Shown here in pieces: positions 1,382 through 62,895 of a stretch of 64,000 nt of DNA. How positions within the stretch are numbered: the first letter of the stretch is position 1; every line of letters starts with the position of its first letter. Origin of the DNA: a virus; the IMG/VR virus record IMGVR_UViG_3300049324_000053. One strand, written 5' to 3'. The notes below the pieces were generated by a model, which saw only the letters and a list, made by a program, of their open reading frames with translations, ran no database searches and was not told the DNA's origin. Made by a program: the position numbers and the translations under genes.

Positions 1382-1385
1382 ATGT

Positions 1386-5927: not shown

Positions 5928-6035
5928 GATGACGGCCTCCCTTCGTGATGGGCGTTTAGATTAGCGCACCTGTATGTCAGAGTACGCGAGCAAGCTCCGT
6001 GACGCAGCGTGAACCGCTACGCCATCCGGGTGAAA

Positions 6036-6245: not shown

Positions 6246-6508
6246 GCTGCCACGACCAGCGGCAGATCCGCGTGCTCCAGATACGCCGCGAACCGGCGCA
6301 CCGTGGCCTCGGCATCCTCGACGGTGTCGTCACACGTCCACGGCGCCCGCATCGGACTCGACTCGCACCAGGCGCCCGTCACCGCCGACCGCAGCCGGAA
6401 CATGAGCGCCGGCGCCGTCGGCCGCCAGGAAATCTCGTGCACCGTGCCGACCGGCACCGTCCACGACCACACCACCCGTTCACCGTCGTGACGTCGCTCG
6501 ACGAACAT
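6242..6508 (-). CDS. Hypothetical protein
   Basis: RBS; coupled in the array. Confidence 0.6.
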   Translation of the reverse strand: MFVERRHDGERVVWSWTVPVGTVHEISWRPTAPALMFRLRSAVTGAWCESSPMRAPWTCDDTVEDAEATVRRFAAYLEHADLPLVVAA

Positions 6509-6517
6509 CGCCGCTTC

Positions 6518-7216: not shown

Positions 7217-7449
7217 GACGCCGACTCGATACGCACGATGTGTCCCGCGCGGGTGACCACTTGCACGTCGACGTCGCGCCACTGCGAGTTGGTGATCTCG
7301 TAGTTCACTGCCGCGTCGGGCTCGGTGAGTGCCGCCGTGTTGTCGGCGAACACCACCCGGTACTGCGGGTTGCCGTTCTTAGTGTTGTTCAGGCGCACCA
7401 GCGACGCGATGCGCGCCACTGTGCGAAGTTCGGGTGCTTGCGTGCTCAT
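7213..7449 (-). CDS. Actinophage-like small protein (RLNNxxNGNP motif)
   Basis: GGGGAAG RBS; 78 aa. Confidence 0.65.
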   Translation of the reverse strand: MSTQAPELRTVARIASLVRLNNTKNGNPQYRVVFADNTAALTEPDAAVNYEITNSQWRDVDVQVVTRAGHIVRIESAS

Positions 7450-7505
7450 GTTCTTCCCCTTCCAGGGCGTTGAGGTCGGTGAGATGGTCGTCGGGTCCGG
7501 CGCGC

Positions 7506-7883
7506 TCACGCGCTCGCGGCTTCCTGTTCGGGACCGTTCGGGTGCGCCTGCCGGTAGGCGTCGATGACCGCGTTCGGCAACGGTCCCTGCGAGGAGACTT
7601 CCATGCCCTGACGGATGGCCCACGCACGCATCCGCGCCCACTGCCCGTCGCCGCGGACGCGCTGGCGCTGCCGCTGCGTTGTGGAGCGCACGATGTGCGC
7701 CGGGGCTTGCGGTTCGAGTAGTGGCCGGGCCAGCGGAACCCAGGGCGCCAGCGCACTGAACATCTCGCCGGCTTCCTCCTCCGTCAAGTCGATCTCGAAC
7801 CCGTGACCGGGACGTCCGAGCTGGTAGCGCGCCGCGGGAGACTTGCCGGACAGGTCGCTGATGATGACCAGACGTTCGGCCAT
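7506..7883 (-). CDS. lsr2: Lsr2-like nucleoid protein, variant AT-hook
   Basis: 'SDLSG', 'FEIDLTEE', 'MRAWAIRQGMEVSSQGPLPNAVIDAY'; AAAGGAG RBS. Confidence 0.85.
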   Translation of the reverse strand: MAERLVIISDLSGKSPAARYQLGRPGHGFEIDLTEEEAGEMFSALAPWVPLARPLLEPQAPAHIVRSTTQRQRQRVRGDGQWARMRAWAIRQGMEVSSQGPLPNAVIDAYRQAHPNGPEQEAASA

Positions 7884-7909
7884 GGGGGTGGCTCCTTTCG
7901 TGTTGAGGG

Positions 7910-8188
7910 TCAGTAGCCGAAGTCGAACGTGCGCCCGACCAACGTCGGATCGCTGCATGCCGTGACGATGACGTCGTACCAGCTGTCGCCTTCGATATGG
8001 CTGGTGCCGGTGAACGGGAAGATGTGACTGTAGGACCACTCGTCCTGTTCGTCTTGGCCTTCTTCCGGCGCTGGCGGTGCGGGGATTACCTCGTTCGTGA
8101 CCCGCGTGTAGACCGTGCCGCGGTCGTAGATGTTCTCGATGTCCAAGCTGATCGTGATCGTTGCTGTGACGGTGGCCGTAGCAGTCAT
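7910..8188 (-). CDS. Hypothetical acidic protein
   Basis: Coupled to the ruvB-like stop. Confidence 0.65.
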   Translation of the reverse strand: MTATATVTATITISLDIENIYDRGTVYTRVTNEVIPAPPAPEEGQDEQDEWSYSHIFPFTGTSHIEGDSWYDVIVTACSDPTLVGRTFDFGY

Positions 8189-9159
8189 CGGGGAGTCCTT
8201 TCGGCGAGCAGCGCGGTGGCGCGACGGCGACCGGTCGCGGTGAGCACCCGGCCCTGCTTGGTGAATGCGATCATCCCGGCGTCCGAGAGCAGCACCTCGG
8301 TGTCCGACAGGCCGCCGGGCTCACGCAGTATCTCCGTGAGCGCCGCCTTACCGAGCCCCTCCGGTGTGGAGCGCAGTGCGATCAGATACCGCTGCGCAAG
8401 ATCGGTCAGACCGTCCTCGGTCAGCCCCATCCAATCGAGCACCACGGTCAGGTCGTAACCGCTCTCGGCATCCCAGTTCTTGCCATCGCATCCGAGAGAC
8501 TCGTTGAGCAGGTTGTTGAAGATCGTCGCGATGCGGCGCGGGTTACGCACCGCAGCGCGGGCCACCCGTTCACACGTCGGCAGGTTCGGTGCCGGCAGGT
8601 TGGTGCCGACGAACATCGTCGTTCCGGTCAGAAGGGCGATCGTCACAGCTTCGGGCTCGGTGTACGGCAGCAGTACCGGCCGCAGCGGGAACCGATCCAA
8701 GATCGGCACCGGCAGCCGTCCGACGTCCGTCGTTGCCGCGATGACCGTGATCTTCGGCATCTCCTCGGCGCCGCACGGCCCCATCAGTACGCCGTCCTGC
8801 AGTAAATGAAGCAACCACTCCGCGTTCTGCTTGCCGCCGTTCACCAACCTGTGCACCTCGTCGATGAACAAGATCGAACCGTCCTGCATGTCGCCGATCA
8901 GGTAGCGCGCCTCGTTCAGCGTCATCTTGCCGCTGACCACCTCGCACGGCACGCCCATCTCCTCGGCGATCAGCAGTGCAAGTGTCGTCTTGCCCAGACC
9001 CGCGTGACCGCTGGCCAGCAGCGTGTGATCGAGGCGCCGTCCACGGGTCTTCGCCGCGTTGATCGCTGCACGCAGCTGCGCCTTCGCTGTCGTCTGTCCG
9101 ACGTACTCGTCCCAGCTGCTCACGTACTGGCCAGTTCCGGCCATCATTGTTGATGTCAT
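8185..9159 (-). CDS. ruvB: RuvB-like Holliday junction branch-migration ATPase
   Basis: WDEYVGQ, LDHTLL-SGHAGLGKTT, LFIDEVHRL, AATT, LDRF, C-terminal 'TKQGRVLT'. Confidence 0.88.
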   Translation of the reverse strand: MTSTMMAGTGQYVSSWDEYVGQTTAKAQLRAAINAAKTRGRRLDHTLLASGHAGLGKTTLALLIAEEMGVPCEVVSGKMTLNEARYLIGDMQDGSILFIDEVHRLVNGGKQNAEWLLHLLQDGVLMGPCGAEEMPKITVIAATTDVGRLPVPILDRFPLRPVLLPYTEPEAVTIALLTGTTMFVGTNLPAPNLPTCERVARAAVRNPRRIATIFNNLLNESLGCDGKNWDAESGYDLTVVLDWMGLTEDGLTDLAQRYLIALRSTPEGLGKAALTEILREPGGLSDTEVLLSDAGMIAFTKQGRVLTATGRRRATALLAERTPR

Positions 9160-9202
9160 TGCGGCCCTTCCAAGGGTTCGATAGGCGTCTGTGGGCTTGT
9201 CG

Positions 9203-9766
9203 TCATGACGTTGCCTGCACACCGAGCAGCGCGTCGATGCCTGCGAGGCGTTCGAGCAGTCGCGTCCGTTCGGCCAGCAGCGAGGCACGTTCGTCGTCGG
9301 CGGCGGCGCGCACCTCGGTCGCCGTGCTGTCGCCGCCCAGCAGCGATATCCGCTTGATGGCGTCGAAGCGCACCGGGGGGTGGCTGTCGATCAGCACGCC
9401 CAGCGTGCCGCGCGTGGTCTTCGTGGTCATGCCGACGACCGTGCCCTCATAGATGTTGTCCGAGGCCGTCAGCACCTGCACCGTGCGTCCTATGAGGGTC
9501 AGGATGTCGATCGGGGTCGGTGCGCCCTCGTGCACAGGCTCGGGCGGCGGCGGCGCCTCGTAGGTCAACTTCCCGCTCTTGAGGGCATCGATGGTCAGCG
9601 AGGCGTCGACGCTTTGCAGCTCGTACTTCCAGTTGCGCAACCTGATGTCGATGTTGTTCGCGTGCAGTGCGTCCTCGACGTCGGCGAATCCGTTCTGCTT
9701 GGCGAGCCGCTCCAGTAGGTGCATCTGCGGTTCGGTGACCAGCTTCGAGCCGATCTTGCCTGCCAT
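9203..9766 (-). CDS. Hypothetical protein
   Basis: 187 aa, RBS. Confidence 0.7.
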   Translation of the reverse strand: MAGKIGSKLVTEPQMHLLERLAKQNGFADVEDALHANNIDIRLRNWKYELQSVDASLTIDALKSGKLTYEAPPPPEPVHEGAPTPIDILTLIGRTVQVLTASDNIYEGTVVGMTTKTTRGTLGVLIDSHPPVRFDAIKRISLLGGDSTATEVRAAADDERASLLAERTRLLERLAGIDALLGVQATS

Positions 9767-13788: not shown

Positions 13789-14850
13789 TCAGGCGTGAGC
13801 GAGAACCTTGCCTAGAAGATCAAGGGCCTCGTTGTCGGCCTTGGCCTGCGCCCCGGTGATCGTGTTGATCATGTTGCGTTCCGGCCGCGTGGCGCCTCGC
13901 ACGATCTGCTCGTGGTGGCCGTACGTGTTGACAGCCTGAAGCACCCCGAACGCGGTGTTCTTCCACGGGGCCACCCGTGCATCCCGCACCCACAGGCGGG
14001 TCAGCGTGTCCTGCTTGTTCGTCGCCATCGTCAGGGCACGGCCTTCCAGCCGGGCACCGTCCTTGGTCGTCGGGACCAGGGATTCGAGGAACATCGAGAA
14101 CTGCTTGTCGGTCACGGACGTCTCGCACAATGTCTTGACCTCGGCCGCGAACTCGTCGGACTGCTGTTCGATAATGCCCAGGGCCGCCCGCGCGTCTCCC
14201 ACTTTGAAACCGGAGTTGCGCGAGTGCTTGACCTTGTACGAGGTGAACGACTCACTCCGCGCCATCTCGAACGTGTTGTCACACACCACGACCGTGAACG
14301 TCGGCTTGTAGAAGGTCGCCACCGATCCATCGAAGCTTGTGCCGGTCAGGATGTTCGGCCGGAAGGCGACGCCTTCCGGCGTACTCACGTTGTCCGGCGT
14401 CTCGACCTGGACATACGCCAGGGCGCCTCCGCGCAGAAGTCCGGCCGATCCGATCGACAGCGTGTCGCCGACAATGTTCGACAGGACACCCACAAGCCAC
14501 TCGTGATACTGATGCGGCGTGTACCCATCCTTGAACAGGCCCATGACGGCGTCCGTGTCGTCGCGGGCGATGGCCTGGCGGTCGAGCTGGACGGCCCAGC
14601 GCAGCGGCTGGCCGTCGTCGGAAAGGTGCGTCATCGTGTCGAACGTGGCGGGCAGTTCGACCGCCACGCGCCGGGGCACGGCCTGCCAGTGGAACAGGCG
14701 GCGGCGGACATCGTCGGCCGGAATGGCGCCCGCGTAGTGGTTGGACTCGTCGCCCTGGAATTCCTCGCGGTAGTGCCACGCCTGGCCGCGCTTGTCGGTA
14801 AAGCCGATCAGCTGCAACTGGTTGAGCGTGGTCAGCGTCTCACGGGACAT
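13789..14850 (-). CDS. DUF932/DUF945 phage/plasmid protein
   Basis: 'AWH', 'SAGLLRGG', 'TSFDGS', 'VVCDNT', 'KHSRNS', 'TAFGVLQAVNTY'; AGGAGG RBS. Confidence 0.88.
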   Translation of the reverse strand: MSRETLTTLNQLQLIGFTDKRGQAWHYREEFQGDESNHYAGAIPADDVRRRLFHWQAVPRRVAVELPATFDTMTHLSDDGQPLRWAVQLDRQAIARDDTDAVMGLFKDGYTPHQYHEWLVGVLSNIVGDTLSIGSAGLLRGGALAYVQVETPDNVSTPEGVAFRPNILTGTSFDGSVATFYKPTFTVVVCDNTFEMARSESFTSYKVKHSRNSGFKVGDARAALGIIEQQSDEFAAEVKTLCETSVTDKQFSMFLESLVPTTKDGARLEGRALTMATNKQDTLTRLWVRDARVAPWKNTAFGVLQAVNTYGHHEQIVRGATRPERNMINTITGAQAKADNEALDLLGKVLAHA

Positions 14851-43215: not shown

Positions 43216-43587
43216 TTCAGCGTGACACCGGTGTGGGCAGCTGTGTTGATGCCGCGCGTGAGGTTCGCGGTGATGATGCAACCTGTCCGTGGAACGACTG
43301 TCGAGGACAGGTTGATTTTCTCTTCATCGTGCACATGTCATCCACATGGTCTGTGTTAAAGAACTGCTGAGAACACTTGGCTACACTGCAGGCGCCATGC
43401 AAACGTCATGCATGTCGACAGCAGAGCACCTACCTTCTGACCTGCGGTTTACCATGGCTTCATCTTGCAGGCGATACGTGGATCATCAGCGTGATGACAC
43501 GCCGGGACTGTGTATCCGGCACCCGGTGCATCTGGGCGTGGTATGCGATAAGCTCAACGCCCGACCCTCATGCAAGCAGGTGCCCGC

Positions 43588-44499
43588 ATGCCGACCACTC
43601 CACCCGACGACGCCCTGCGTCCCGTCCTGGACCGTGTCATCGCCCTGACCAACGGCAAAGGCGGTGTCGGCAAGACGTCCACCACCGCCGCCCTCGCCGT
43701 TCAGCTCGCCGAAGCCGGCCTACACGTCCTGGCCGTCGACCTCGACCCGCAAGGCGACCTTGCCGACGACCTGGGCTACATCGCGCGCAGCGACCTCGGC
43801 GAGAACCTGATGTCCGCCGTCCTGACCGGCCGGCCGCTGACCCCGCTGACCGGCGTACGCCCCGGCCTGGACGTCGTGCCCGGCGGTGCGCATCTCGAAG
43901 ACCTCGCCGACGCCCTCGCCGCGATGAACCGCCGGCGTGACACCCGGCTGGCGTTCGCGCGCAGCCTCGCCGCCACCCTCGCCGCCACCCATTACGACTT
44001 CGTGCTCGTCGACACCCCCGGCAAAGGCCCGGTCCTGCAGATGCAGGCCCTCGGCGCCGCCCGCTGGGTGCTCATCCCGTTCCGCTCGGACACCAGCAGC
44101 ATGAAGAACCTCGCCGAGGTCGCCCGCCGGTTCGAGGAGGTTGCCGACGTCAACCCCACCATCGCGGTGCTCGGCGTGTTCCTGCACGGCGTCACCGCCG
44201 GCGCGACCGCCGTCCGCCGCGACGTCTACGCCAGGATCCGGGAGTTGCTGGGCAACGGGGTGCCGATCTTGTCGTCCTGGGTGCGGTACGCCGAAGCCGC
44301 CGCCGTCGACGTGCGCGCCCGCGGCCAGGTCCCCGGGGAACTCGAACGGCTGCCCGCCGCCGGACCCTGGTACGCCCGGCTGCGTGACCCCGCACTGCCC
44401 ACCGGACCGGCCGCGAGCAGTGCCACCCTCGCCGGCGACTACCAGCACCTCGCCGAGGAGATTTTCACCCGCCTGAGCGCCGAGGAGACCACGTCTTGA
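43588..44499 (+). CDS. parA: ParA family partition ATPase
   Basis: NGKGGVGKTS, VDLDPQG, VLVDTP. Confidence 0.95.
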   Translation: MPTTPPDDALRPVLDRVIALTNGKGGVGKTSTTAALAVQLAEAGLHVLAVDLDPQGDLADDLGYIARSDLGENLMSAVLTGRPLTPLTGVRPGLDVVPGGAHLEDLADALAAMNRRRDTRLAFARSLAATLAATHYDFVLVDTPGKGPVLQMQALGAARWVLIPFRSDTSSMKNLAEVARRFEEVADVNPTIAVLGVFLHGVTAGATAVRRDVYARIRELLGNGVPILSSWVRYAEAAAVDVRARGQVPGELERLPAAGPWYARLRDPALPTGPAASSATLAGDYQHLAEEIFTRLSAEETTS

Positions 44500-45049: not shown

Positions 45050-45574
45050 ATGGGCAAGCCGAAACCGAATCCGGACCGTGCACTAGTTCCGGTCGTCGTG
45101 GCCAACAGGCTCGGCGTTCGCGTGAGCGTACTTGCAGGCTGGATGCGTGCAGTTGGCGCCGACGGTGATGGACCATTGCGTGAGGCGGACGTGATCAAGT
45201 GGCGCGCTGACCCGAGTTCGGCGCCTGAGTGGTTTCGTACGAACATGCAGTCGTTCTATGCCGATCGCGAATTGCGGCGGCAGGCCAGAGCTGAACGTGA
45301 CGCACGGTTGGCGGCGGAGTATCGGGATGCCGTATCCGCGGCCTACGAGGTCGTTTGCGAGCTTCTGCGGACGCGGGACCGGAAGTTGTGGCAGGGTCGA
45401 TGGCTCGAACGGCATCCGGCGCATGAACAAGCATTCCTGGAGATCGTGGTGCGCGCGATGAAGGACAGCGGCCTGGCCTTCGACGGCGAACCGGATTTTA
45501 CCTACCTCGGTATCGAGGAACGCGAAGCGCTGCGCGTGTGCGGCTACGACGTTCCGGAGCCTGCGCTGTTGTGA
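45050..45574 (+). CDS. Hypothetical protein (N-terminal HTH-like)
   Basis: TAGCAT 6 nt before ATG. Confidence 0.65.
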   Translation: MGKPKPNPDRALVPVVVANRLGVRVSVLAGWMRAVGADGDGPLREADVIKWRADPSSAPEWFRTNMQSFYADRELRRQARAERDARLAAEYRDAVSAAYEVVCELLRTRDRKLWQGRWLERHPAHEQAFLEIVVRAMKDSGLAFDGEPDFTYLGIEEREALRVCGYDVPEPALL

Positions 45575-45810
45575 CGTGAGGCCGCACGTAGCACGCCGTC
45601 GGCCCACTGCTTGCCCTGCGCCCGCTGTTCCGGTGTCAGTGGGTCGAGGTCTTCTTCTATCAGGGCGATCGCGCGGCTCATCTGCACGATCTTGTCCCGG
45701 CGTTCCAGTTCGGCCGCCAACGCCGCGGTGGTCAACGCCGAGATGTCCAGGTGCGCGGCACGCGCCGCGGCCAGCAGTTCGTCCGGCAGACTGATGCGTA
45801 CTCGGGCCAT
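45544..45810 (-). CDS. CcdA-family RHH antitoxin-like protein (orphan)
   Basis: MARVRISLPDELLAAARAAHLDISAL..AAL..EL. Confidence 0.8.
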   Translation of the reverse strand: MARVRISLPDELLAAARAAHLDISALTTAALAAELERRDKIVQMSRAIALIEEDLDPLTPEQRAQGKQWADGVLRAASRHNSAGSGTS

Positions 45811-45843
45811 GAGCGTCAGTCTGCCGGACGGGGTGCGTGGATG

Positions 45844-46731
45844 TCAGCTGGTCGTCGGGTCCATGAACCGGGCGTACTCGCCCTGGAAGACGACGGGGAT
45901 GGTGCCGGTTTTCCCGTTGGGGTTCTTGGCCACGATCAGCTCCGCTTCCGTGATCTGCGGGTCGTCCGGGTGTCCTTGTTCCCGGTGGAGCAGGATGACG
46001 ATGTCGGCCTGTCGTTCGCTGGCATTGGACTCGTATAGGTCGGCCATTGTCGGGCGCTTTTCCGTCGCCGGTTCCTGGGGGTGTTCCAGTTGCGTGGTCG
46101 CCACGATCGTTACGTTCAGCTCCATCGCCAGCAGTTTGAGCGCCCGGCTGATGTCGGCGATCTCCAGATGGCGCGACTCGGAGTCCGGCGAGTCAAGCAG
46201 CTCCAGCCGGTCGATCACGATCAGAGCCAGTCCCGGATCGAAGTTCAGGCGGCAGGCTATCGCCCGGATCTGGGCGACAGTCGGGAATGGCGACCCGTCG
46301 ACGAAAAGCGGCGTGGTTTTCAGTTTCTCCAGCACCGGCGTGAGTCGTGCCCAGCCTTCGTCGCTGACGCATCTGTTACGTAGCTGCACCACCGGGACGC
46401 CGGCCTCAGCTGCAAGCAGCCGTTGTACGACGGCTGCATGGCTCATCTCTGGTGTAGCGAACAGTGTCGACACTTGATGCTTCATCGTGGTGTTGCGGGC
46501 GAAGCTCAGCGCGAGAGCTGATTTGCCGGCGGAAGCCCGCGAGCCTATGACAACGAGCTGGCCGGGGCGCAGTCCTCCGTCGGTGAGTTCGTCGAGCGCT
46601 GCGATCCCGGTCGGCAGGACAGCCGGCCGCGTACGGTCGGTTCGTTCTGCCGCCAGTCTGATCATGGTCTCTTGTAGTGCGGTGCTGATGTGGATGGGGT
46701 CTTTGCCGGGCGAAGCCTCGCTGGTCTCCAT
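45844..46731 (-). CDS. Truncated DnaB C-terminal domain paralogue (Walker A intact, Arg finger lost)
   Basis: PTGIAALDELT, GSRASAGKS, PEMS, IDRLELL, DLYESNASERQAD, KNPNG. Confidence 0.85.
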   Translation of the reverse strand: METSEASPGKDPIHISTALQETMIRLAAERTDRTRPAVLPTGIAALDELTDGGLRPGQLVVIGSRASAGKSALALSFARNTTMKHQVSTLFATPEMSHAAVVQRLLAAEAGVPVVQLRNRCVSDEGWARLTPVLEKLKTTPLFVDGSPFPTVAQIRAIACRLNFDPGLALIVIDRLELLDSPDSESRHLEIADISRALKLLAMELNVTIVATTQLEHPQEPATEKRPTMADLYESNASERQADIVILLHREQGHPDDPQITEAELIVAKNPNGKTGTIPVVFQGEYARFMDPTTS

Positions 46732-46779
46732 GGTCGTGACACGTTTCCTTCTTCGTGGTCGTTCGACGCGTACTGGTTG

Positions 46780-47835
46780 TTATCGGCCTTCGGAGGCGTG
46801 CTCCGTCGGCAGCTGGATGAATCGGCTGTAGTCATCCTGATAGAGCAGCGGCACGACACCGACAGGGCCGTTGCGGTGCTTCTCCAGGATCAGATCGACC
46901 TCGCCTGCCTGAAAGCCCTGTGGGTCGTAGGCCGCATCCCGGTGCAGCATGAGGACCATGTCGGCATCCTGCTCAAGGGTTCCGGACTCGCGCAGGTCCG
47001 ACAGCATCGGCCGGTCGCCCTTGCGCCGCTTGAGGTTGCGGTTGATCTGGGAGACGACGACCAGCGGCACATCCAGTTCTTTCGCCAGGTGTTTTAGTGA
47101 CCGGTGGGTGAGGGCGACGTCCTGATGGTGCTGGTCGGTGCGCTGAGCGTGCCGTAGCAGCTGCAGGTAGTCCACGATGACCAGCGACAGGCCGCGCTGT
47201 TGCTGCAGCCGTAGGGCTTTACTTCGCAGCTTGGCGACGGACAGGTAGGACGAGTCGTCGATGAGTAGTGGAACCGATTCCAGGGCGTCAAGATGACGGG
47301 TGAGGCGGATCCATTCCTCGTCGGACAGGTTGGGCTTCTTGTGGCGCATCTCCGGCAGGGGAATGCTTGCTTCGGCGGCCAGCACTCGTGTGGTGATCTC
47401 CGATTGGCTCGTTTCCAAGCTGAACAGTGCCGTCGTCTGGCCCTGCGCGATGGCAGCATGGCGGGCGAAGTCCAATGCCAGGGAGAACTTCGGAATGGTT
47501 CGTGGTCCTGCTATCACGATCAGCTGTTGCGCCCGTAGGCCGCCGCCGGTCAACCAGTCCAGCCCAGGGATGCCGGTCATCACCTGATCTGTCCGCTTGA
47601 CACCGTTCTGCTGGGCCCTGATCGCCTCTAACGTGGCTTGTACGCTTTCTCCGGCATGCACAAGGTTGCGCGTTGCGTGCGTTGCGGCGGTTGTCGAATA
47701 CATCACCGTCTGCCCGGGGGCAGCCGAGTCGTCCTCGTCGGTGGCGCGGGTGTAGCCGTACTGAGCCAGGTCCAGGCCGGCGGCCCGAGCCGCGCGCAGC
47801 AGTTCGGTCGGAAGCGTGATCCTCATCGGGCGCAT
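46780..47835 (-). CDS. CcdA-like N-terminus fused to a DnaB C-terminal domain (Walker A broken)
   Basis: MRPMRITLPTELLRAARAAGLDL; AGPRTIPKFS; DYLQLL, SQINR, DLRESGTLEQDAD, KHRNGP. Confidence 0.88.
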   Translation of the reverse strand: MRPMRITLPTELLRAARAAGLDLAQYGYTRATDEDDSAAPGQTVMYSTTAATHATRNLVHAGESVQATLEAIRAQQNGVKRTDQVMTGIPGLDWLTGGGLRAQQLIVIAGPRTIPKFSLALDFARHAAIAQGQTTALFSLETSQSEITTRVLAAEASIPLPEMRHKKPNLSDEEWIRLTRHLDALESVPLLIDDSSYLSVAKLRSKALRLQQQRGLSLVIVDYLQLLRHAQRTDQHHQDVALTHRSLKHLAKELDVPLVVVSQINRNLKRRKGDRPMLSDLRESGTLEQDADMVLMLHRDAAYDPQGFQAGEVDLILEKHRNGPVGVVPLLYQDDYSRFIQLPTEHASEGR

Positions 47836-47857
47836 GAGCGAAGTATGCCGATCGTTG

Positions 47858-49210
47858 TCAGTGGGCTGCTAGGTCCATGAACCGGCTGTAATGGCCCTGG
47901 AACGCGACGGAGATGACGCCGGTGGGTCCGTTGCGGTGTTTGGCCACGATCAGGTCGGCCTCACCTGCGCGGGGGCTTTCCGGCTCGTACATGTCCTCGC
48001 GATGCATCAGGATGATCACGTCGGCGTCCTGTTCGATGGCACCTGACTCACGCAGGTCCGACAGCATCGGCTTCTTGTCCGCCCGCGACTCCGGGTTGCG
48101 GTTCAGCTGCGAGAGCGCCACGACTGGTACATGCAGTTCCTTGGCCAGCAGCTTCAGCGACCGGCTCATCTCGGCGACCTCCTGCTGGCGTGATTCGGTG
48201 CGTTTGGTTGAGTTCAGCAGCTGCAGGTAGTCCACCACGATCAGCGCCAGATCGTTCTTCTGCCGCAGCCGGCGGGTCTTGGCCCGGATTTCGGTGATGG
48301 TCAGGTACGGCGAGTCGTCGACGAACAGCGGCGCCGCGGTCAGGTTCCCGTATTGCAAAGCGAGTCTGTCCCAGTCCTCGTCTTGCATCTTGCCGGCACG
48401 CAGTCGCTGCAGCTGGACGCGCGCCTCCGCGGACAGCAACCGGGTGGTGATCTCTGAACGGCTCATCTCCAGGCTGAACAGTGCAGCAGCTTTCCCGTGA
48501 CGCAGCGTGGAGTTGCGTACGAAGTCCAGCCCGAGGGTGGATTTGCCGACTGCGGGACGCGCCGCGATGATGATCAGTTGCCCGGGGTGCAAGCCATTGG
48601 TGAGGTTGTCCAGGTCCGTGAAGCCTGTGGGCACCCCATGGGCCTTGCCGTCTTCCTTTTGGCGTGCCTCGATCTCCTCGATGGTGGGCTGGATCAGATC
48701 ACTGAGACGGACGACGTCCTGGTTCATCTGCTGCTCGGCGACGTCGAACACCGCCGCCTGCGCCGCGTCCACCATGTGATCAATGTCTGGTGATGGTGCG
48801 TAGCCGAGCTGCACGATGCGGGTGCCGGCCTCGATGACGCGCCGTGCGATGGCCTTCTCGGACACGATCTGGGCGTAGTACCCGGCGTTCGCCGCGGTCG
48901 GTACCGAGTTGATCAGCGTGTGCAGGTAGGGCAGGTCGCCGGCGCGGACGAGCTGGTCCTGGCGTACCAGCTCTGCTCCCACGGTGACGACGTCGGTGGG
49001 GATGTTGTCGGTGAACAACCGCACGATCGTGTCGAACACGATCGCGTGCCGTGGCAGGTAGAAATCGGCGCCGCGCAGCACCTCGACGACGTCGGCGATG
49101 GCGTCGGTGCTCAGCAGCATTCCGCCCAGAACGCCCTGTTCAGCGGCCTCGTCGTGCGGCGGGGTCCGGTCGAACGTGCGGTTCGCGCCGTTCATGTTCC
49201 CGTCGGTCAT
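47858..49210 (-). CDS. dnaB: Replicative DNA helicase, full length
   Basis: PPHDEAAEQGVLG, AARPAVGKS, SLEMS, DYLQL, SQLNR, DLRESGAIEQDAD, KHRNGP. Confidence 0.97.
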   Translation of the reverse strand: MTDGNMNGANRTFDRTPPHDEAAEQGVLGGMLLSTDAIADVVEVLRGADFYLPRHAIVFDTIVRLFTDNIPTDVVTVGAELVRQDQLVRAGDLPYLHTLINSVPTAANAGYYAQIVSEKAIARRVIEAGTRIVQLGYAPSPDIDHMVDAAQAAVFDVAEQQMNQDVVRLSDLIQPTIEEIEARQKEDGKAHGVPTGFTDLDNLTNGLHPGQLIIIAARPAVGKSTLGLDFVRNSTLRHGKAAALFSLEMSRSEITTRLLSAEARVQLQRLRAGKMQDEDWDRLALQYGNLTAAPLFVDDSPYLTITEIRAKTRRLRQKNDLALIVVDYLQLLNSTKRTESRQQEVAEMSRSLKLLAKELHVPVVALSQLNRNPESRADKKPMLSDLRESGAIEQDADVIILMHREDMYEPESPRAGEADLIVAKHRNGPTGVISVAFQGHYSRFMDLAAH

Positions 49211-49796: not shown

Positions 49797-51608
49797 ATGA
49801 GCATCAGCTTAGCTTCTACGCAGCCCCCTGACCATCACTATGGTGTGGCGTCCGTCACTGAACAAGTGCGATGGTTCGCCACTGATCTGAACATTCGGAA
49901 CGCGGCTCGTGACGCATTGTGCGGACATGGTCGCATCGGGTCATTCGCTGACTGTGTCCTGGAACGGATGCGTCTGCTCGTCGACTGGCGTGAACCGCTG
50001 GCCATGGTGCCCGGCGCGCCGTCGGGCACCGACCCCACCGGCGGGCACAGCATCCATTCACGCGCTCAGCTGCTCGGCGTGCGTCATGAGCATCTGGCCC
50101 GGGTCGAAGCGCTGCTCGTCGCACACCAGCTGGCCCTGTACGACACCGACGGCAGCCTGCGGATCGCGGCCTGGAAGCTCGCCGGCCGCCAGTCGGCCAA
50201 CAAGCACCGTTACGGCCATGTGCGGACCACGCAGTCGACCTACGACAAGTGGTGGCAGGCGCTGCTGGACGCCGGCCTGCCATCCTTCGTGCGGTATCTG
50301 GTCTTCGGTGCGCTCGCCGCCCTGGAACGTGATCCGGCGTTGACCGGCGACGACGGTGAACTGCTGTGCGATGTGATCTCCACGGCCGAGCAGCTACGGA
50401 TACCGCGCAGCACCTGGGCGCGCTGGCTGGTGCTGCTCGTCAAGCATGGGGTGCTGATGCGGATGGGGCGCGGCCGGTACCGGCTGGTGTTCGACGCGGC
50501 GGTGCGCCGGCGGCCGGCCTTCCTGCTGGTCACGACGCCATCGGTGTCGTCGCTCGTCGAGGCGGCCGACGACGAGGCGGCCGACCCAGCTGGCGAGACG
50601 GCTGACGAACCGGCCGACGACCCGGCCGGCGACCCGGACCGAACGCTCGTTGAGGCGCCGCGAACTCTCACCGGCGGAACACGATCAAGCTTCCAGGGGG
50701 GTGACGAGAGCGTTTGGGCTCTCACCGGCGCAGAATCGCACCGCTCTGACCTGCGGGTTCGCGGCCCTGTAGAAGCAAAAGAATCTTTAAAGGAAGAAGC
50801 TAAAGCTGCACAGCTACGAGCAAGCTCAGGCTTCTTCCTCGATCACTTCAAAGAGCCGGCCGGGCGGCGGGTGCGGGCGCTGCTGGAGATCCTCATGAGC
50901 GTTCGTCTCGACCTGGCGCCAAGGATGACCGATTCGTTCCCGTTGCGCCGGGCGCTGGGCGACGTCATCGCCGCCGGTGACGAGCTGAACTACCCCGACT
51001 GGCGGGTCTGCCGCGACGTCAAGGAGCACTGGATTTACTCCGCGGACACCGTCGGTGGCGTGGTCTACGCCATGAAGGCGCTGGCCAAGGACTACCAGCA
51101 GCTACGCGACCGCAAGCAGGCCGCGGCGGCACGCCGCCGGCTGCTCGATGCCGACCAGGTGCCTTCAGCTTCGCCGAAGCCGACCGCCGAGCAGCTGGCG
51201 GCCGCCGATGCCGCGCTGGCCGCCAAGGCGGACGCCAACGAGGCCGCTGTTGGCGCTCAACAGGCCCAGGCTGCGCGAGAACGGGCTGCTCAGGCGCAGG
51301 CGTTGGCTGCGCGGGAGGCAGATCCGAATTCGTCGTTCAACATGATCAGGGCTGCCGGCGCCGCGGCGAGGCGGCAGGACGAGCGTCGTACGGCGGTGTT
51401 CGCTGCGCTGCGCGCCGCCGAGCAGAACCAACTGGCGAGGCGACTGGTGCCGGGCGAGTCGCGGGGCCCGGCGTGGAAGCCGTTGCCGGAGAGGGTGGCG
51501 AGGTTGGTGCTGGCCGAACTGGACAAGCGTTGCGGTGCGGATGCGCCGGCCGCGCGGTTGATCGCGTGCGCCAGGACGGTGCTCGGTGGGGAGAGTGCGG
51601 TCGCATAA
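49797..51608 (+). CDS. Putative replication initiator (wHTH)
   Basis: 603 aa; 'TAEQLRIPRSTWARWLVLLVKHGVL'; divergent from dnaB; internal A-rich tract. Confidence 0.55.
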   Translation: MSISLASTQPPDHHYGVASVTEQVRWFATDLNIRNAARDALCGHGRIGSFADCVLERMRLLVDWREPLAMVPGAPSGTDPTGGHSIHSRAQLLGVRHEHLARVEALLVAHQLALYDTDGSLRIAAWKLAGRQSANKHRYGHVRTTQSTYDKWWQALLDAGLPSFVRYLVFGALAALERDPALTGDDGELLCDVISTAEQLRIPRSTWARWLVLLVKHGVLMRMGRGRYRLVFDAAVRRRPAFLLVTTPSVSSLVEAADDEAADPAGETADEPADDPAGDPDRTLVEAPRTLTGGTRSSFQGGDESVWALTGAESHRSDLRVRGPVEAKESLKEEAKAAQLRASSGFFLDHFKEPAGRRVRALLEILMSVRLDLAPRMTDSFPLRRALGDVIAAGDELNYPDWRVCRDVKEHWIYSADTVGGVVYAMKALAKDYQQLRDRKQAAAARRRLLDADQVPSASPKPTAEQLAAADAALAAKADANEAAVGAQQAQAARERAAQAQALAAREADPNSSFNMIRAAGAAARRQDERRTAVFAALRAAEQNQLARRLVPGESRGPAWKPLPERVARLVLAELDKRCGADAPAARLIACARTVLGGESAVA

Positions 51609-58665: not shown

Positions 58666-59202
58666 GTGGGACGCGCCGACTTCGACAACGCCAAAAAGCT
58701 GTACCCCAGTGTCAACATGGGCGAAGCCGAATGGTTCGCCTATTTTCAGACCCCCGCCGGCGAACAAGCCATCGGCTACATCATGCGCGACATCTACGAC
58801 GAGGTGCTCGCCCTGGAAGAACGCGACACCGGCCGCGTGCCCATGGGCCGGCGCGCCGCCCGCCCCGCCGTGCCGCTGTCCACCGTGTACGCCAAAGTGT
58901 TCCCCCCCGCTTACAGCAACGAACCGTTCCCCGTGGCGCTGCGCACCCTGATGAACGGTCGTTCGATCCGCGCGTTCGCCGCGAAAGTTCCCATGGCGCA
59001 CGTCCCGCTGCACCGGCTGCTGGCCGGTGCCGACACCCCGGACCTGCGGCTCATGGAAGCCATCGCCGCCGCCGCCCGCGTCAAGCCAACCTACTTTTTG
59101 GAATACCGCGCCCAGTTCGTCGCCCTCATGGTGCAGCAAGCATTTCTCGCTCGCCCGCATCTGTCGATCCGTGCCATCCATGACCTGAAAGTGACCGCCT
59201 GA
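58666..59202 (+). CDS. XRE-like HTH protein coupled to terminase
   Basis: 'SIRAFAAKV.M....LHRLLAG...P....MEAIA......PTYF.EYR'. Confidence 0.65.
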   Translation: MGRADFDNAKKLYPSVNMGEAEWFAYFQTPAGEQAIGYIMRDIYDEVLALEERDTGRVPMGRRAARPAVPLSTVYAKVFPPAYSNEPFPVALRTLMNGRSIRAFAAKVPMAHVPLHRLLAGADTPDLRLMEAIAAAARVKPTYFLEYRAQFVALMVQQAFLARPHLSIRAIHDLKVTA

Positions 59203-61943
59203 TGACCGCCAAGGCGATCGTTGCGCCCAACGAAGAAGAGTCCTATCTGGTGGCGCTGCTCGACTCGATCGACGGCATCGACCTGGCCGAGGCATTCTGG
59301 TCGGACCCGTCCACCGCGACCGGCTGCTTTCGCGTCTGGGACTTTCAGTGGAAGTGGTTCACCTGCACCGACACTTTGCAGGCTGATCAATGCGGGCGTG
59401 GTGTCGGCAAATGTCTCGCCCCCGACACCCGCCTGACCCTCGCCGACGGTCGTCGTATTCGGGTTGCCGACCTTGCCGCCGCGACCGACCCCACCGCGAT
59501 CCTGGCCACCGTCGCCCGCGCCGACGACGCCGTGCACGGGTTCGAACTACGACCCGGCACTGTGTACGTTTCCGGACATAAGGCGTGCCTGCGGATCCGC
59601 ACCGTCAGTGGCCGGATCCTGACCGTCAGCACCGACCATCCGGTGTTCACGAGTACCGGCTGGCGCAAGGCCGGCGAACTGGCCGGCGACGACTCGCTCG
59701 CGATCGCCGCCTACCAGCCGGTGTTCGGCCGCAAGGTGCTGCCCCGCTATCTGGTGCGGCTGCTGGCACACGTTATCGCCACCGGCGGCGTCGGTGACCG
59801 ACCCCGCGACGTGTGGTACTCCTCGGCCGACGCCGGTACCGACACCAGCTACTACGACGACCTGGACGCCACCCTTGGCGCTGCCAAACTCGTCGCCCGG
59901 CCCGTCTCTCGCCGCGACCGCATGATCAAAATTGTGGGGGAACGGTGCGGCCCCGGCAACGGCATCGGCCCGTTCATGGCCCAGGCCGGCATGACCGGTG
60001 CCCGCGCCGGCACCATGCGCATCCCCGACCTGGTCTTCGCCCTGCCCGCCCGGCAGCTGGCCCTGTTCCTCGGCCGGCTACTGCAACCCCCCCACGGTGT
60101 TGCCGTGCGCGCCGGCACCGTGCGCTATCAGTGCGCCAACCCGGCGATGGCCGCCGACCTCGCGCATCTGCTCACCCGGTTCGGTGTCACCAGCCGGATC
60201 CGCAGCAAACTGCTGCCGTCCATGCGGGGCCGCACCCGCACCGACGCCCGCATCCAGGTCGTCACCATCGACGACCCTGCAAGTCTCGTGCGGTTCGCCG
60301 CCGTCGTCGGCCCCCACGTGCTCGGCGGCACCCGCACCGCCCTCGACGCCCTGGTCGCCGGCCTGGACCCGGCCGCGTTCACCGCGGCCGCTGCCCCGCC
60401 GGTCGTGGTGTTCGACTCGGTCGCCGACATCACCGACGCCGGCGAACAGGATGTCTATGACGTGACGATGTCCGGCGAACCACAGCTGTTCGCCGACGAC
60501 GTGCTCGTGCACAACTCCACGAAAATCATCATGCGCGGGTTCGCGCATCCTTTCCACGCCCCCGGCGAGCACATGTTCATCACCGCCCCCGAGCTGAACC
60601 ATCTGGGACCGCTGACCGACGGGCTGCAGAACCGGTTCGAAGGCACCCGTATCGGCGCCGAGATGATGACCAAAGGCCGTGGTGGGGGCATCACCAAGCA
60701 GCCGCACTGGCAGGCCCAGTTCCTCAACGGCGCGAAGATCATCACCCGGCTACCGAACCGGGACGGCCGCGGCGTCAAAAGCCAGCATGCCAGCAAACTG
60801 CACCTCGACGAGGCGCAGGACTATCCCGCCGCCGGCTGGAACGAAGTCCAGCCCACCTTCAAACGTGGCGTGCCCGGCGCGCAATGGCATGTGCATGGCG
60901 TTCCCCGCGGTGTGCGGGACAACTTCTACGCCATCACCAGCGACGAGTCCAAGTTCACCGTGCACCGGTATTTTGCCTGCCACCGCCCGGACTGGTCGGA
61001 CAACGAACGGGCCGAGGCCATCCGCAACTACGGTGGTTCGCCGCGGGATCCTGATTACAAGCGCAACATTTTCGGCGACCATGGTGATGCGACGAACCCG
61101 CTGTTTGTGTTGTCTCGGTTCATTGCCGTCTGCGACCTGGACCCTGGCAGTGACTACAACACCGCCGTCTACGCCGCCCGGTCCCTCAGCGACGAACTGC
61201 TCGCCGACCACGACCTCGACGCCCTGCTCGACCTGCCCGCCATCCACCGCATCGGCTATAGTCGCGCACCCCGCGGCTACAGCGCTTACTACGGCGGCAT
61301 GGACGTCGGCATGACGAATCACCCATCCGAGGTGTTGATCTTCGGCCAGCGCACCGGCACCGAGCTGATGGAGCTGCTGCTGCGCGTGCATATGGAGCGT
61401 GTCGACACCGAGCGTCAGGTGATGGTCGTGCAGCGGCTGTTCGACTTCTACGGCAGCAAGCTGATCGCGTTCGCCCTGGACAGGACCGGTATCGGTCACT
61501 CCGTGTGGGACCTGTTGGACAAGTCCTACGTCGGGGATCGGGTGTACGGGTACCACTTCAGTTCGAAGGTCCCGGTTGGTATCCGGGAAGCGGCCGAGGG
61601 CGAGGATCCGCACGACCTCGACGCGCTCATCGAGATGCGCGACCTGGTCGAACACGCCTCCGACGTGCTGCGCGTGGACTGGGTCGACGCCGGCCGGCTG
61701 CAGCTGCCCGCTGATGACGAGCTGCTCGGTGAATGGCAGGGGCAGACGTACAAGGTGGAGAAATCCGGCGGAAACCTCTACGGCAAAAGGGTGTATTCCA
61801 AGGGAAAGATGCACACCTTAGACGCAGGCAAGATGGCGGCCGCGGCAAAGACATTGCCGCCCATTCAGGATGCCATCGACCGGGCCCGTGCGGTGCACGA
61901 CGTCGACCCGGTGTTCGACGAGTTCCTCGGATCGTCCTGGTGA
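59202..61943 (+). CDS. Terminase large subunit with intein
   Basis: Walker A GRGVGK|S split by an intein; Walker B LHLDEAQD; nuclease GMDVG, LDRTGIG, HTLDA. Confidence 0.85.
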   Translation: MTAKAIVAPNEEESYLVALLDSIDGIDLAEAFWSDPSTATGCFRVWDFQWKWFTCTDTLQADQCGRGVGKCLAPDTRLTLADGRRIRVADLAAATDPTAILATVARADDAVHGFELRPGTVYVSGHKACLRIRTVSGRILTVSTDHPVFTSTGWRKAGELAGDDSLAIAAYQPVFGRKVLPRYLVRLLAHVIATGGVGDRPRDVWYSSADAGTDTSYYDDLDATLGAAKLVARPVSRRDRMIKIVGERCGPGNGIGPFMAQAGMTGARAGTMRIPDLVFALPARQLALFLGRLLQPPHGVAVRAGTVRYQCANPAMAADLAHLLTRFGVTSRIRSKLLPSMRGRTRTDARIQVVTIDDPASLVRFAAVVGPHVLGGTRTALDALVAGLDPAAFTAAAAPPVVVFDSVADITDAGEQDVYDVTMSGEPQLFADDVLVHNSTKIIMRGFAHPFHAPGEHMFITAPELNHLGPLTDGLQNRFEGTRIGAEMMTKGRGGGITKQPHWQAQFLNGAKIITRLPNRDGRGVKSQHASKLHLDEAQDYPAAGWNEVQPTFKRGVPGAQWHVHGVPRGVRDNFYAITSDESKFTVHRYFACHRPDWSDNERAEAIRNYGGSPRDPDYKRNIFGDHGDATNPLFVLSRFIAVCDLDPGSDYNTAVYAARSLSDELLADHDLDALLDLPAIHRIGYSRAPRGYSAYYGGMDVGMTNHPSEVLIFGQRTGTELMELLLRVHMERVDTERQVMVVQRLFDFYGSKLIAFALDRTGIGHSVWDLLDKSYVGDRVYGYHFSSKVPVGIREAAEGEDPHDLDALIEMRDLVEHASDVLRVDWVDAGRLQLPADDELLGEWQGQTYKVEKSGGNLYGKRVYSKGKMHTLDAGKMAAAAKTLPPIQDAIDRARAVHDVDPVFDEFLGSSW
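59412..60515 (+). mobile_element. Intein (368 aa) with degenerate LAGLIDADG homing endonuclease
   Basis: CLAPDT start, 'STDHPVF' block B, 'VYDVTM...LFADDVLVHN|S' end. Confidence 0.93.
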
Positions 61944-62243
61944 CTACTCGTCGTCCACGCTGGGAGGCCGGTACCCCTTGACGTCTTCGTGTAGAACGTC
62001 GAGACCGTTCGGCTGGCCCAGGATCTTCATCGTCTTGAGCAGCGCGTCGTAATCCTCGTGCGGCATCATCACAGCGATGGGCGTCACGTCGTCCATGATT
62101 GAGATGTGCAGCCGGCCGATGATGACGCCGTCCATGATGGTGTCGAAGTCTGTGGCGAGCGTCTCCCGCAGGATCGGCACGAGTGGCATCTTTCGTGCCG
62201 GATGTGCCTCGGGCTCAGGTGTGGGCTGTGTTTCGTCGCTCAC
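61944..62243 (-). CDS. Phd/YefM-like antitoxin (orphan)
   Basis: 'PIAVMMPHEDYDALLKTMKILGQP'. Confidence 0.6.
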   Translation of the reverse strand: MSDETQPTPEPEAHPARKMPLVPILRETLATDFDTIMDGVIIGRLHISIMDDVTPIAVMMPHEDYDALLKTMKILGQPNGLDVLHEDVKGYRPPSVDDE

Positions 62244-62638
62244 TGGACCCCCAGAACTGTGTGGCCGCGGGCGGTGGCTGCGGCCGCCAGGCGATGATCG
62301 AAGGTGGCTATCGAGCCACGGGTGACGTCGGCGGCGAGCAGCACGCAGCAGTCGGGCATCCGCAGCCCGGTCTCTACACGCAGCAGCGCGAGCAGCGTGG
62401 GACTTTCCTGCGGGAACGGGATGGTCTGCAACCCCAGTTTGTGCAGCGCCAGGAGTGTTTGGCCCAGGCGCCCTTCGCGGGCGGGCACGACGAGGGCTTC
62501 GGCCATGTTCAGTGGATTGGTGCACAGTGGCTCGCCTGCCACGTCCCGTAGAAGCTGTCGCGCCTGAGCGTGGTGAGCGTCGTCAGGGTTGAGGTGAGCG
62601 ATGATGACGGCCGCGTCGAGGACGATCAAGCGGGCCAT
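62240..62638 (-). CDS. vapC: VapC PIN-domain toxin
   Basis: IVLDAAVIIA, NMAE, LRMPDCCVL, IATFDHRL. Confidence 0.92.
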   Translation of the reverse strand: MARLIVLDAAVIIAHLNPDDAHHAQARQLLRDVAGEPLCTNPLNMAEALVVPAREGRLGQTLLALHKLGLQTIPFPQESPTLLALLRVETGLRMPDCCVLLAADVTRGSIATFDHRLAAAATARGHTVLGVQ

Positions 62639-62895
62639 TCCTCATGTAGCTGCTGCAGGTCCCCAGGGTTGAAAACGCCCTGCAGGATGCCGGCAGTGCT
62701 TTCGATGGCGGCGAGTTGTTCGCGCCGGCGTCGTTTGCTGTCGTCGCACAAGCTCTGGTGACCGGCTTCGATGAGCCGTAGCAGGAGCTTGGTGCAGCTA
62801 CCGCCGTCTTCGGGCCATTGGCGTGCGGCGTCGGCGAGGGCTTCGGCTACCAGGTCGTTTTGTGTGATCATGTAGCGAGGCTTGGTGGTCGGCAT
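62626..62895 (-). CDS. Cognate VapB-type antitoxin
   Basis: MPTTKPRYMIT...AEAL..AA..WP...LLLRLIEAG...EEWP; overlaps vapC. Confidence 0.85.
   Translation of the reverse strand: MPTTKPRYMITQNDLVAEALADAARQWPEDGGSCTKLLLRLIEAGHQSLCDDSKRRRREQLAAIESTAGILQGVFNPGDLQQLHEEWPA

What the first reader, a model, noticed from the sequence alone, without database searches (positions are those of the whole stretch)
45544..47835. CcdA-like RHH leader fused to dnaB copy 2, with a free paralogue closing the cluster
Seen: copy 2 starts MRPMRITLPTELLRAARAAGLDL, nearly matching the stand-alone 88-aa gene MARVRISLPDELLAAARAAHLDI just after copy 3. Both starts have a -10-like hexamer 6-7 nt upstream (CATACT, CAGACT). 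Inference: an antitoxin promoter plus its first ~25 codons was captured to express the two truncated helicases independently of dnaB. The shared beta-strand/helix could let the free RHH protein heterodimerise with the fusion or autoregulate it, giving a TA-like module with a dead helicase as the effector.
Basis: partly seen in the sequence, partly recalled or inferred. Interest (0 to 1): 0.75.

Follow-up and report, generated by a model that had tools for sequence, protein, structure and literature searches.

The report
Duplication-junction chimera: antitoxin start on helicase copy
An old partial tandem duplication on an actinobacterial plasmid-like element ran from the middle of its dnaB helicase gene into the small antitoxin-type gene behind it, so the second helicase copy starts with that gene's start region and first ~23 codons; this is a natural, long-kept case of a known way of making fusion genes, and nothing yet shows it is a toxin-antitoxin device.

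Summary
Copy 2 (47835-46780, minus strand) begins with 23 codons that match the start of the 88-aa gene (45810-45544) at 15 of 23 residues. A profile built only from outside relatives of the 88-aa protein hits just these two of 945 ORFs in the window.

The likeness does not stop at the ATG. It runs upstream through the spacer and stop codon into the 3' ends of dnaB and copy 3. The repeated unit is therefore [dnaB codon ~133 ... stop ... spacer ... RHH codon ~23], and the "fusion" is the in-frame junction of a tandem duplication. This is the same topology as the nusG'-'sigH chimeras of S. aureus.

- The leader holds only the strand and first helix of the RHH fold, followed by ~40 residues predicted disordered.
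- Relatives of the 88-aa protein are VapB-type antitoxins paired with PIN toxins, never with DnaB. They carry TANNNT exactly 6 nt before the ATG, which supports a leaderless promoter.
- Copy 3 has no leader.
- Both short copies have been kept open by selection.
- Heterodimerisation and toxicity could not be tested because the complex predictor was closed.
- An internal Met45 start for copy 2 remains possible (~30%).

Other first-stage notes flagged this same stretch. No look-alike was found on other DNA.

The parts
47858..49210 (-). dnaB, full-length replicative helicase (450 aa): the upstream parent of the duplication.
   Evidence: PF00772 and PF03796. About 64% identical to actinobacterial DnaBs. 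Only 4 of 105 near-invariant CTD columns are changed.
47836..47857 (-). 22-nt spacer after the dnaB stop, with the -10-like CATACT (47847-47842) 6 nt before the copy 2 ATG. It is homologous to the spacer before the 88-aa gene.
   Evidence: spacer-only alignment P about 0.006. No Shine-Dalgarno sequence.
47767..47835 (-). RHH-derived leader of copy 2 (codons 1-23: strand plus helix 1). There is a second in-frame ATG at codon 4 (47826).
   Evidence: 15/24 identical to the 88-aa protein. Outside-family HMM E 4.3e-4. GC3 0.87. AF2 helix 10-18, pLDDT about 63.
47656..47766 (-). DnaB-derived tether of copy 2 (codons 24-60, equivalent to DnaB ~133-169), predicted disordered. It holds Met45 (47703-47701), a possible alternative start.
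   Evidence: Codons 19-45 against dnaB codons 128-154: 46/81 nt identical, null 27 +/- 3.9. BLASTP alignment starts at residue 19 against 128. pLDDT below 50.
46780..47835 (-). Copy 2 as a whole (351 aa): leader, tether, linker helix (61-76) and RecA-type CTD. Walker A is degenerate (PRTIPKF). Walker B, H3, H4 and the Arg finger are intact.
   Evidence: PF03796 at 252 bits, no PF00772.. A public gene call starts at ATG 47826 (348 aa) or at 47835 (351 aa).
45844..46731 (-). Copy 3 (295 aa): linker helix plus CTD, with no RHH leader and a GAAGGA Shine-Dalgarno-like start. Walker A is intact. The Arg finger is lost (R to P) and H3 and H4 are degenerate.
45811..45843 (-). 33-nt spacer after the copy 3 stop, with the -10-like CAGACT (45823-45818) 7 nt before the 88-aa ATG.
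45780..45830 (.). 18-nt inverted repeat (45780-45797 and 45813-45830, 17/18 complementary). The 88-aa gene's ATG sits in the 15-nt spacer. It is a candidate operator or a hairpin in read-through RNA.
   Evidence: I2. As RNA, -38.4 kcal/mol, z -5.7, 0 of 200 shuffles. There is no counterpart at copy 2.
45544..45810 (-). 88-aa RHH protein, the downstream parent of the duplication. It is a VapB/CcdA-type antitoxin homologue with no toxin gene beside it.
   Evidence: PF07362 at 24.0 bits. 87 outside representatives. AF2 pLDDT 92.9, helices 10-18, 23-54 and 60-86. Relatives are followed by PIN genes. The window holds no homologue of those PINs.
45050..45574 (+). Convergent 174-aa gene overlapping the 3' end of the 88-aa gene by 31 nt. 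It occupies the place where relatives have the PIN toxin.
   Evidence: called in a public assembly. No family.

Best explanation
The ancestor had dnaB followed by a small leaderless RHH (VapB/CcdA-type) gene. An illegitimate tandem duplication copied the stretch from about dnaB codon 133 to about RHH codon 23.

This leaves an intact dnaB, an intact RHH gene, and between them an in-frame chimera. The chimera consists of the RHH spacer, the -10-like hexamer, the ATG and 23 RHH codons, joined to DnaB residues ~133-450 (tether, linker helix, RecA core). A second duplication inside the chimera then produced copy 3, which has its own Shine-Dalgarno-type start.

The leader therefore serves mainly as a ready-made start. 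It provides a probable leaderless promoter and an initiation codon that can express copy 2 independently of dnaB. It is not a working RHH domain.

Both N-terminal-domain-less copies were kept by selection. They probably act as partly inactivated subunits that assemble with each other or with DnaB through the retained linker helix. The 88-aa protein is an orphan antitoxin-type regulator.

Status of each step:
- Shown: the origin, the extent of the homology, and selection on the copies.
- Inferred: promoter use, translation from ATG1, and assembly of the copies.
For: Continuous homology:
- DNA likeness between dnaB-end/spacer/leader and copy3-end/spacer/88-aa-start runs without a break at about 70%, against 60-68% in the CTD bodies.
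- Copy 2 residue 19 onward aligns to DnaB residue 128 onward. The 81 nt after the leader are 57% identical to dnaB codons 128-154, P < 1e-4.
- The outside-family HMM recognises the leader.

Relationships of the copies:
- In the tree, both copies sit with the local dnaB on very long branches: 3.4 and 4.2 against 0.3.
- They share a one-residue insertion and a Met that no DnaB has.

Selection on the copies:
- Under neutral change at the observed 39-40% divergence, 6-7 in-frame stops are expected per copy, and only 0.1-0.2% of simulations stay open.
- All three gap events per copy are in frame.
- Codon identity runs pos2 > pos1 > pos3, and dN/dS is 0.43-0.63.

Start signals:
- Five relatives have TANNNT-N6-ATG. 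This is the leaderless geometry mapped in mycobacteria (PMC3898074), where TA genes are predominantly leaderless (PMC8485053, abstract).
- GC3 of codons 1-44 is 0.87-0.90.

[quoted passage not shown] Both parents stay intact, and the chimera is driven by the downstream gene's promoter and start (PMC3486894).
Against: - There are no expression data. Both hexamers lack the first T of TANNNT, and a sigma-70 consensus scan found nothing.
- The leader itself shows little purifying selection (dN/dS about 0.74 over 23 codons).
- Met45 of copy 2 aligns with the start of copy 3, so a shorter product without the leader is possible.
- No remnant of the leader was found at the copy 2/copy 3 junction, so the order of the two duplications is inferred only from shared derived characters.
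- The locus is known from a single element. Every contig found is identical, so there are no intermediates and no population data.
Confidence: 0.7

Rival explanations
1. The leader's strand and helix pair with the free 88-aa RHH protein, or the 88-aa protein represses copy 2. A crippled helicase then acts as the toxic effector and the RHH protein as its antidote, forming a TA-like module.
For: - The 88-aa gene follows the truncated copies in one operon-like run.
- It belongs to a genuine antitoxin family with an intact C-terminal region.
- It has no PIN partner in the window.
- Leader helix 10-18 is predicted in the same place as helix 1 of the 88-aa protein.
- An NTD-less DnaB that keeps its linker helix could in principle poison a hexamer.
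Against: - The leader lacks helix 2 and the invariant Ser, so half of the RHH core is missing.
- Relatives pair with PIN, and none of seven contexts examined holds a DnaB-like gene.
- The operator-like palindrome at the 88-aa start is not present at copy 2.
- Copy 3 has no leader.
- The adjacency is explained by the duplication itself.
Confidence: 0.07
2. The origin is the same, but the leader and tether are an untranslated relic. Copy 2 is really made from Met45 (about 307 aa), the position homologous to copy 3's start, from dnaB read-through or an internal promoter.
For: - Met45 aligns with Met1 of copy 3.
- Residues 20-60 are predicted disordered.
- Leader dN/dS is about 0.74.
- An open frame of 44 codons is not significant in 65% GC DNA (my estimate, P about 0.3).
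Against: - GC by codon position over codons 1-44 is 0.71-0.74 / 0.57 / 0.87-0.90. This is a clear coding pattern, stronger than in codons 45-84 (GC3 0.65).
- No frameshift against dnaB over codons 19-45.
- No Shine-Dalgarno sequence before Met45.
- Two public gene callers chose ATG1 or ATG4.
Confidence: 0.25
3. Copies 2 and 3 are decaying pseudogenes, and the chimera is a meaningless scar.
For: - Branches more than ten times longer than dnaB's.
- 35 and 39 of 105 near-invariant DnaB columns changed, including Walker A in copy 2 and the Arg finger in copy 3.
- Lower GC3 than dnaB.
- No orthologues anywhere.
Against: - Stop-free frames are expected in only 0.1-0.2% of neutral simulations for each copy, and all indels are in frame.
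- Core fold residues, the linker helix and many motifs are retained.
- The AF2 CTD has pLDDT above 90.
Confidence: 0.07

Closest known systems
Short-junction tandem-duplication chimeras nusG'-'sigH and rplK'-'sigH of Staphylococcus aureus (PMC3486894)
   Same: A duplication whose right end lies inside the downstream gene gives: intact upstream gene, then an in-frame chimera (5' part of the downstream gene plus 3' part of the upstream gene), then the intact downstream gene. The chimera uses the downstream gene's promoter and start codon.
   Different: The S. aureus cases are recent, unstable laboratory events with exact junction repeats. This one is ancient (about 40% nucleotide divergence), fixed and kept by selection. 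It truncates the upstream gene by about 130 codons and was followed by a second duplication. Its junction microhomology can no longer be read.
VapB-type RHH antitoxins of VapBC modules (Pfam CcdA PF07362-like N-terminus)
   Same: The 88-aa protein matches the family over its full length, and AF2 predicts helices 10-18 and 23-54 (plus 60-86) after an N-terminal stretch that carries no paired strand in the monomer model. The leader matches the family's first about 23 positions.
   Different: No PIN gene lies beside the 88-aa gene. The leader has no helix 2 and no C-terminal toxin-binding part.
N-terminal-domain-less DnaB-like 'RecA core' helicases of mycobacteriophages, and the truncated Wildcat gp80 (PMC4523182)
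   Same: A DnaB-type RecA core without the N-terminal collar. That paper shows such a truncated protein can still unwind DNA.
   Different: Those proteins form an old phage clade with intact motifs. Copies 2 and 3 are local offshoots of the neighbouring dnaB, each with a different catalytic lesion.
T7 gene 4 long and short forms (from my own knowledge, not checked here)
   Same: A full-length form and an N-terminally shortened form of one DnaB-family helicase are made side by side and can mix in one ring.
   Different: In T7 the two forms come from one gene through an internal start. Here they come from separate, diverged paralogues.

Membership tests
RHH domain (applied to the copy 2 leader) | Complete strand-helix-helix unit able to form the intertwined dimer | tested here: not met
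   The profile match covers only positions 6-28. Homology ends at residue ~23, and DnaB-derived sequence follows. AF2 gives helix 10-18 and then disorder over 20-60.
RHH domain (applied to the copy 2 leader) | Family-invariant Ser at the start of helix 2 | tested here: not met
   Ser24 is invariant in 41 family members. Copy 2 has Ala at that place.
VapB/CcdA-type antitoxin (applied to the 88-aa protein) | Family profile match above the curated threshold, plus full-length relatives | tested here: met
   PF07362 at 24.0 against 22.4 bits. 87 outside representatives aligned over residues 1 to about 80. AF2 pLDDT 92.9.
VapB/CcdA-type antitoxin (applied to the 88-aa protein) | Cognate toxin gene directly downstream | tested here: not met
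   Relatives have a PIN gene with a 4-nt overlap. Here a convergent 174-aa gene lies in that place. The window has no homologue of those PINs. The rest of the 145-kb element and the host were not available.
Type II toxin-antitoxin module (copy 2/3 as toxin, 88-aa protein as antitoxin) | The pair co-occurs in other genomes | tested here: not met
   None of seven contexts of relatives contains a DnaB-like gene. Copies 2 and 3 have no orthologues.
Type II toxin-antitoxin module (copy 2/3 as toxin, 88-aa protein as antitoxin) | Direct binding, and toxicity relieved by the antitoxin | not testable with these tools
   Complex predictor closed. Needs bench tests.
DnaB-family replicative helicase (applied to copy 2) | N-terminal collar domain PF00772 | tested here: not met
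   Only PF03796 is found. The alignment starts at DnaB residue 128.
DnaB-family replicative helicase (applied to copy 2) | Motifs H1 (Walker A), H1a, H2, H3, H4 and the trans Arg finger (PMC1950529; bioRxiv 10.1101/2024.11.09.622779) | tested here: not met
   Walker A G-K-S reads P-K-F. Of the H1a block (F-S-L-E-M) F, S, L and the Glu are kept and the Met is Thr; Walker B, H3, H4 and K-H-R-N-G are intact.
Tandem-duplication junction chimera | Both parent genes intact on either side. The repeat unit is continuous through the stop codon and spacer. The chimera is in frame. | tested here: met
Tandem-duplication junction chimera | Short direct repeat (microhomology) at the junction | tested here: inconclusive
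   GCCGGC (Ala-Gly) occurs in dnaB at codons 128-129 and in the leader at codons 19-20, and the RHH family consensus also has Ala-Gly there. The sequences are too diverged to place the break within about 5 codons.

The most novel reading that the evidence does not exclude
The half-RHH leader on its flexible 40-residue tether is a functional handle. It pairs with the free 88-aa RHH protein by strand and helix swapping. The antitoxin-type protein then either holds the P-loop-dead helicase copy inactive or brings it to a DNA site such as the 18-bp palindrome. Together with copy 3 (P-loop intact, Arg finger lost), this would form a helicase-derived ring regulated by an antitoxin-type protein, acting on the element's own DnaB.
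Probability: 0.06. Interest if true: 0.75.

Novelty: new member of a known kind. Interest (0 to 1): 0.35.

Why it matters
This is a clear natural example of one partial tandem duplication creating a new expressed gene in bacteria. The downstream gene donates its promoter, start codon and first codons to a truncated copy of the upstream gene.

The process has been watched in the laboratory as an unstable event (S. aureus sigH). Here the product has survived long enough to diverge by about 40% at the DNA level while staying open.

It also explains how an N-terminal-domain-less DnaB paralogue obtained a start of its own. It removes the need to invoke a new toxin-antitoxin type for the resemblance.

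The more interesting open question is what the two selected, differently crippled helicase copies do. That question lies beside this finding rather than in it.

Tried and rejected
No binding statement is made.
- The whole genome is not held, so a PIN partner elsewhere could not be sought.
- Word-indexed searches found no relatives of copy 2, copy 3 or the 88-aa protein beyond ordinary DnaBs or the protein itself. Only the exhaustive HMMER search found the RHH family. A 23-residue leader is too short for that search to reveal other RHH::DnaB chimeras.
- Plasmid and phage DNA searches found only single dnaB genes. The 'two places' in Nocardiopsis plasmids are a repeated record, not a tandem dnaB.
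- The minus-strand 174-aa ORF after the 88-aa gene was tested as a hidden PIN. It has no family and is a mirror ORF of the plus-strand gene.
- I looked for leader remnants at the copy 2/copy 3 junction. Scores were no better than shuffles.
- The sigma-70 consensus scan found no promoter.
- The 88-aa model and profile were compared with solved structures. Only weak RHH-type rows appeared, none significant.
- The independent contig L011 is 100% identical, so no polymorphism-based test of selection was possible.
- I tested whether the conserved-site losses in copies 2 and 3 avoid each other overall. They do not (14 shared, about 13 expected). The complementarity is confined to the ATP-site motifs.
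Full report
**Setting.** The window is 62-70% GC. Around the finding it carries plasmid-type maintenance genes: a ParA ATPase (43570-44499) followed by a 163-aa gene, and then a minus-strand run of dnaB, two shorter DnaB_C-only genes and an 88-aa gene. Further out lie a large terminase with an intein, a vapBC pair, ThyX, an ATP-dependent ligase and MoxR/VWA genes. DNA searches hit only the single dnaB genes of Streptomyces, Kitasatospora and Pseudonocardia plasmids at 66-70% identity. No whole genome is held. The same locus occurs, 100% identical, on an independent 5.7-kb assembly.

**Observation.**
- Copy 2 and the 88-aa protein share 15 of their first 24 residues. That alone is weak (E 0.62).
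- An HMM built from 40 outside relatives of the 88-aa protein picks out exactly two of the window's 945 ORFs. These are the 88-aa gene (1.4e-25) and the first 23 residues of copy 2 (4.3e-4).

**What the likeness is.**
- At the DNA level the similarity does not begin at the ATG. It runs upstream through the spacer and the stop codon into the last codons of dnaB and of copy 3.
- Identity is about 70% there, against 60-68% along the helicase bodies. There is no step at either boundary, so the whole stretch is one old repeat unit.
- Downstream, the RHH likeness stops at about codon 23, and from residue 19 copy 2 aligns with DnaB from residue 128. The 81 nt after the leader are 57% identical to dnaB codons 128-154, against a null of 33%.
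- The arrangement is therefore: intact dnaB, then [RHH spacer + ATG + 23 codons :: DnaB ~133-450], then further downstream the intact RHH gene.
- This is exactly what a tandem duplication leaves when its left end lies in dnaB and its right end lies in the RHH gene.
- The same topology, with the downstream gene's promoter and start driving the chimera, was shown experimentally for nusG'-'sigH and rplK'-'sigH in S. aureus (PMC3486894).

**Copy 3.**
- Copy 3 has no leader. Its start follows a GAAGGA motif, and the copy 2/copy 3 junction holds no recognisable remnant.
- Copies 2 and 3 share a one-residue insertion that no DnaB has, and a Met (Met45 and Met1) at the same alignment column.
- Both sit next to the local dnaB in a tree, on branches more than ten times longer.
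- I infer a second duplication inside the chimera.

**Are the copies alive?**
- At the observed 39-40% nucleotide divergence, neutral change would give 6-7 in-frame stops per copy. Only 0.1-0.2% of simulations stay open, and all indels are in frame.
- Codon-position identities (2 > 1 > 3) and dN/dS of 0.43-0.63 agree.
- AlphaFold2 folds the copy 2 core with pLDDT above 90 and a linker helix at 61-76.
- Selection has therefore kept both copies.
- Their lesions differ. Copy 2 has lost the Walker A Gly and Ser but keeps Walker B, H3, H4 and the Arg finger. Copy 3 keeps G-K-S but has lost the Arg finger and much of H3 and H4.
- DnaB sites are composite: the P-loop comes from one subunit and the Arg finger from the next (bioRxiv 10.1101/2024.11.09.622779). 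Only a copy 3/copy 2 interface could therefore be complete. That is inference.

**The leader as protein.**
- The 88-aa protein is modelled confidently (pLDDT 92.9) with helices at 10-18, 23-54 and 60-86.
- The leader covers only the strand and helix 1. The family-invariant Ser24 is Ala, and residues 20-60 of copy 2 are predicted disordered.
- It is not a complete RHH domain.

**The leader as start.**
- Five independent relatives have TANNNT exactly 6 nt before their ATG.
- This is the geometry of leaderless genes in mycobacteria (PMC3898074), where TA genes are predominantly leaderless (PMC8485053, abstract).
- The window's CATACT and CAGACT sit at the homologous place but lack the first T.
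- GC3 of codons 1-44 is 0.87-0.90, which favours translation from ATG1 or ATG4.
- Met45 remains an alternative start.

**The 88-aa family.**
- The family has 87 outside representatives.
- In three contexts a Pfam-confirmed PIN gene follows, and a fourth has an uncalled PIN-like ORF in that place.
- One representative appears to be an RHH joined to a PIN-like C-terminal part, read by eye from its sequence.
- One relative, on two contigs, is solitary.
- None lies beside a DnaB-like gene.
- In the window the toxin's place is taken by a convergent gene, and no related PIN exists.
- An 18-bp palindrome brackets the 88-aa ATG (-38.4 kcal/mol as RNA, z -5.7). It is absent at copy 2.

**Verdict.** The 'captured start' idea is right in substance, but it is explained by an ordinary mechanism. 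The TA-like reading has no support so far and several points against it.

Noticed in passing
45780-45830: An 18-nt inverted repeat (17/18) brackets the ATG of the 88-aa gene. One arm carries the -10-like hexamer and the other encodes residues RISLPDE. As RNA it folds at -38.4 kcal/mol (z -5.7). There is no counterpart at the copy 2 start. It is a candidate RHH operator, or a hairpin formed only in read-through transcripts.
   Followed up: partly
L003:3975-4003, L004:2824-2852, L005:1246-1274, L007:2475-2503, L009:71-99: Relatives of the 88-aa gene that share only 40-45% protein identity all have TANNNT exactly 6 nt before the ATG. They also carry a 7-mer (TGCGYAT-like) repeated at an 11-bp period across the -10 and the start codon. 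This is a conserved leaderless promoter plus operator layout.
   Followed up: partly
45844-47835: The two short DnaB copies have different ATP-site lesions (copy 2: Walker A; copy 3: Arg finger, H3, H4). Only a copy 3 P-loop/copy 2 Arg-finger interface could be complete. Over all 105 conserved columns the losses overlap as expected by chance (14 against about 13).
   Followed up: partly
47701-47703 and 46729-46731: Met45 of copy 2 and Met1 of copy 3 fall in the same alignment column, where DnaBs have no Met. This is either a shared derived start or an internal start also used in copy 2.
   Followed up: partly
45544-45574: The 88-aa gene and the plus-strand 174-aa gene converge and overlap by 31 nt. 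The 174-aa gene has an equally long mirror ORF on the minus strand (45083-45607) with the same GC-by-position pattern. Neither has any family.
   Followed up: partly
59202-61943: A 913-aa ORF that an earlier first-stage note of this scan (e1-5883789) calls the large terminase. The only family match obtained here is a sub-threshold intein-splicing domain over residues 128-438 (28.7 bits against a 35.8-bit cut-off). The terminase identity itself was not tested here. The element may be a phage-plasmid.
   Followed up: no
62240-62895: A vapC-like (PIN) gene with an upstream 89-aa antitoxin-like gene. This PIN is not related to the PINs that partner the 88-aa protein's relatives (tblastn found no hit).
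   Followed up: partly
49797-51608: A 603-aa protein divergent from dnaB across a 586-nt spacer has no Pfam or PHROG family. It is a candidate initiator of the replicon.
   Followed up: no
62-9288: The left part of the window holds DUF6744, VWA, MoxR-type AAA+, ATP-dependent DNA ligase and RuvB-like AAA genes. DUF932 lies at 13789-14850.
   Followed up: no
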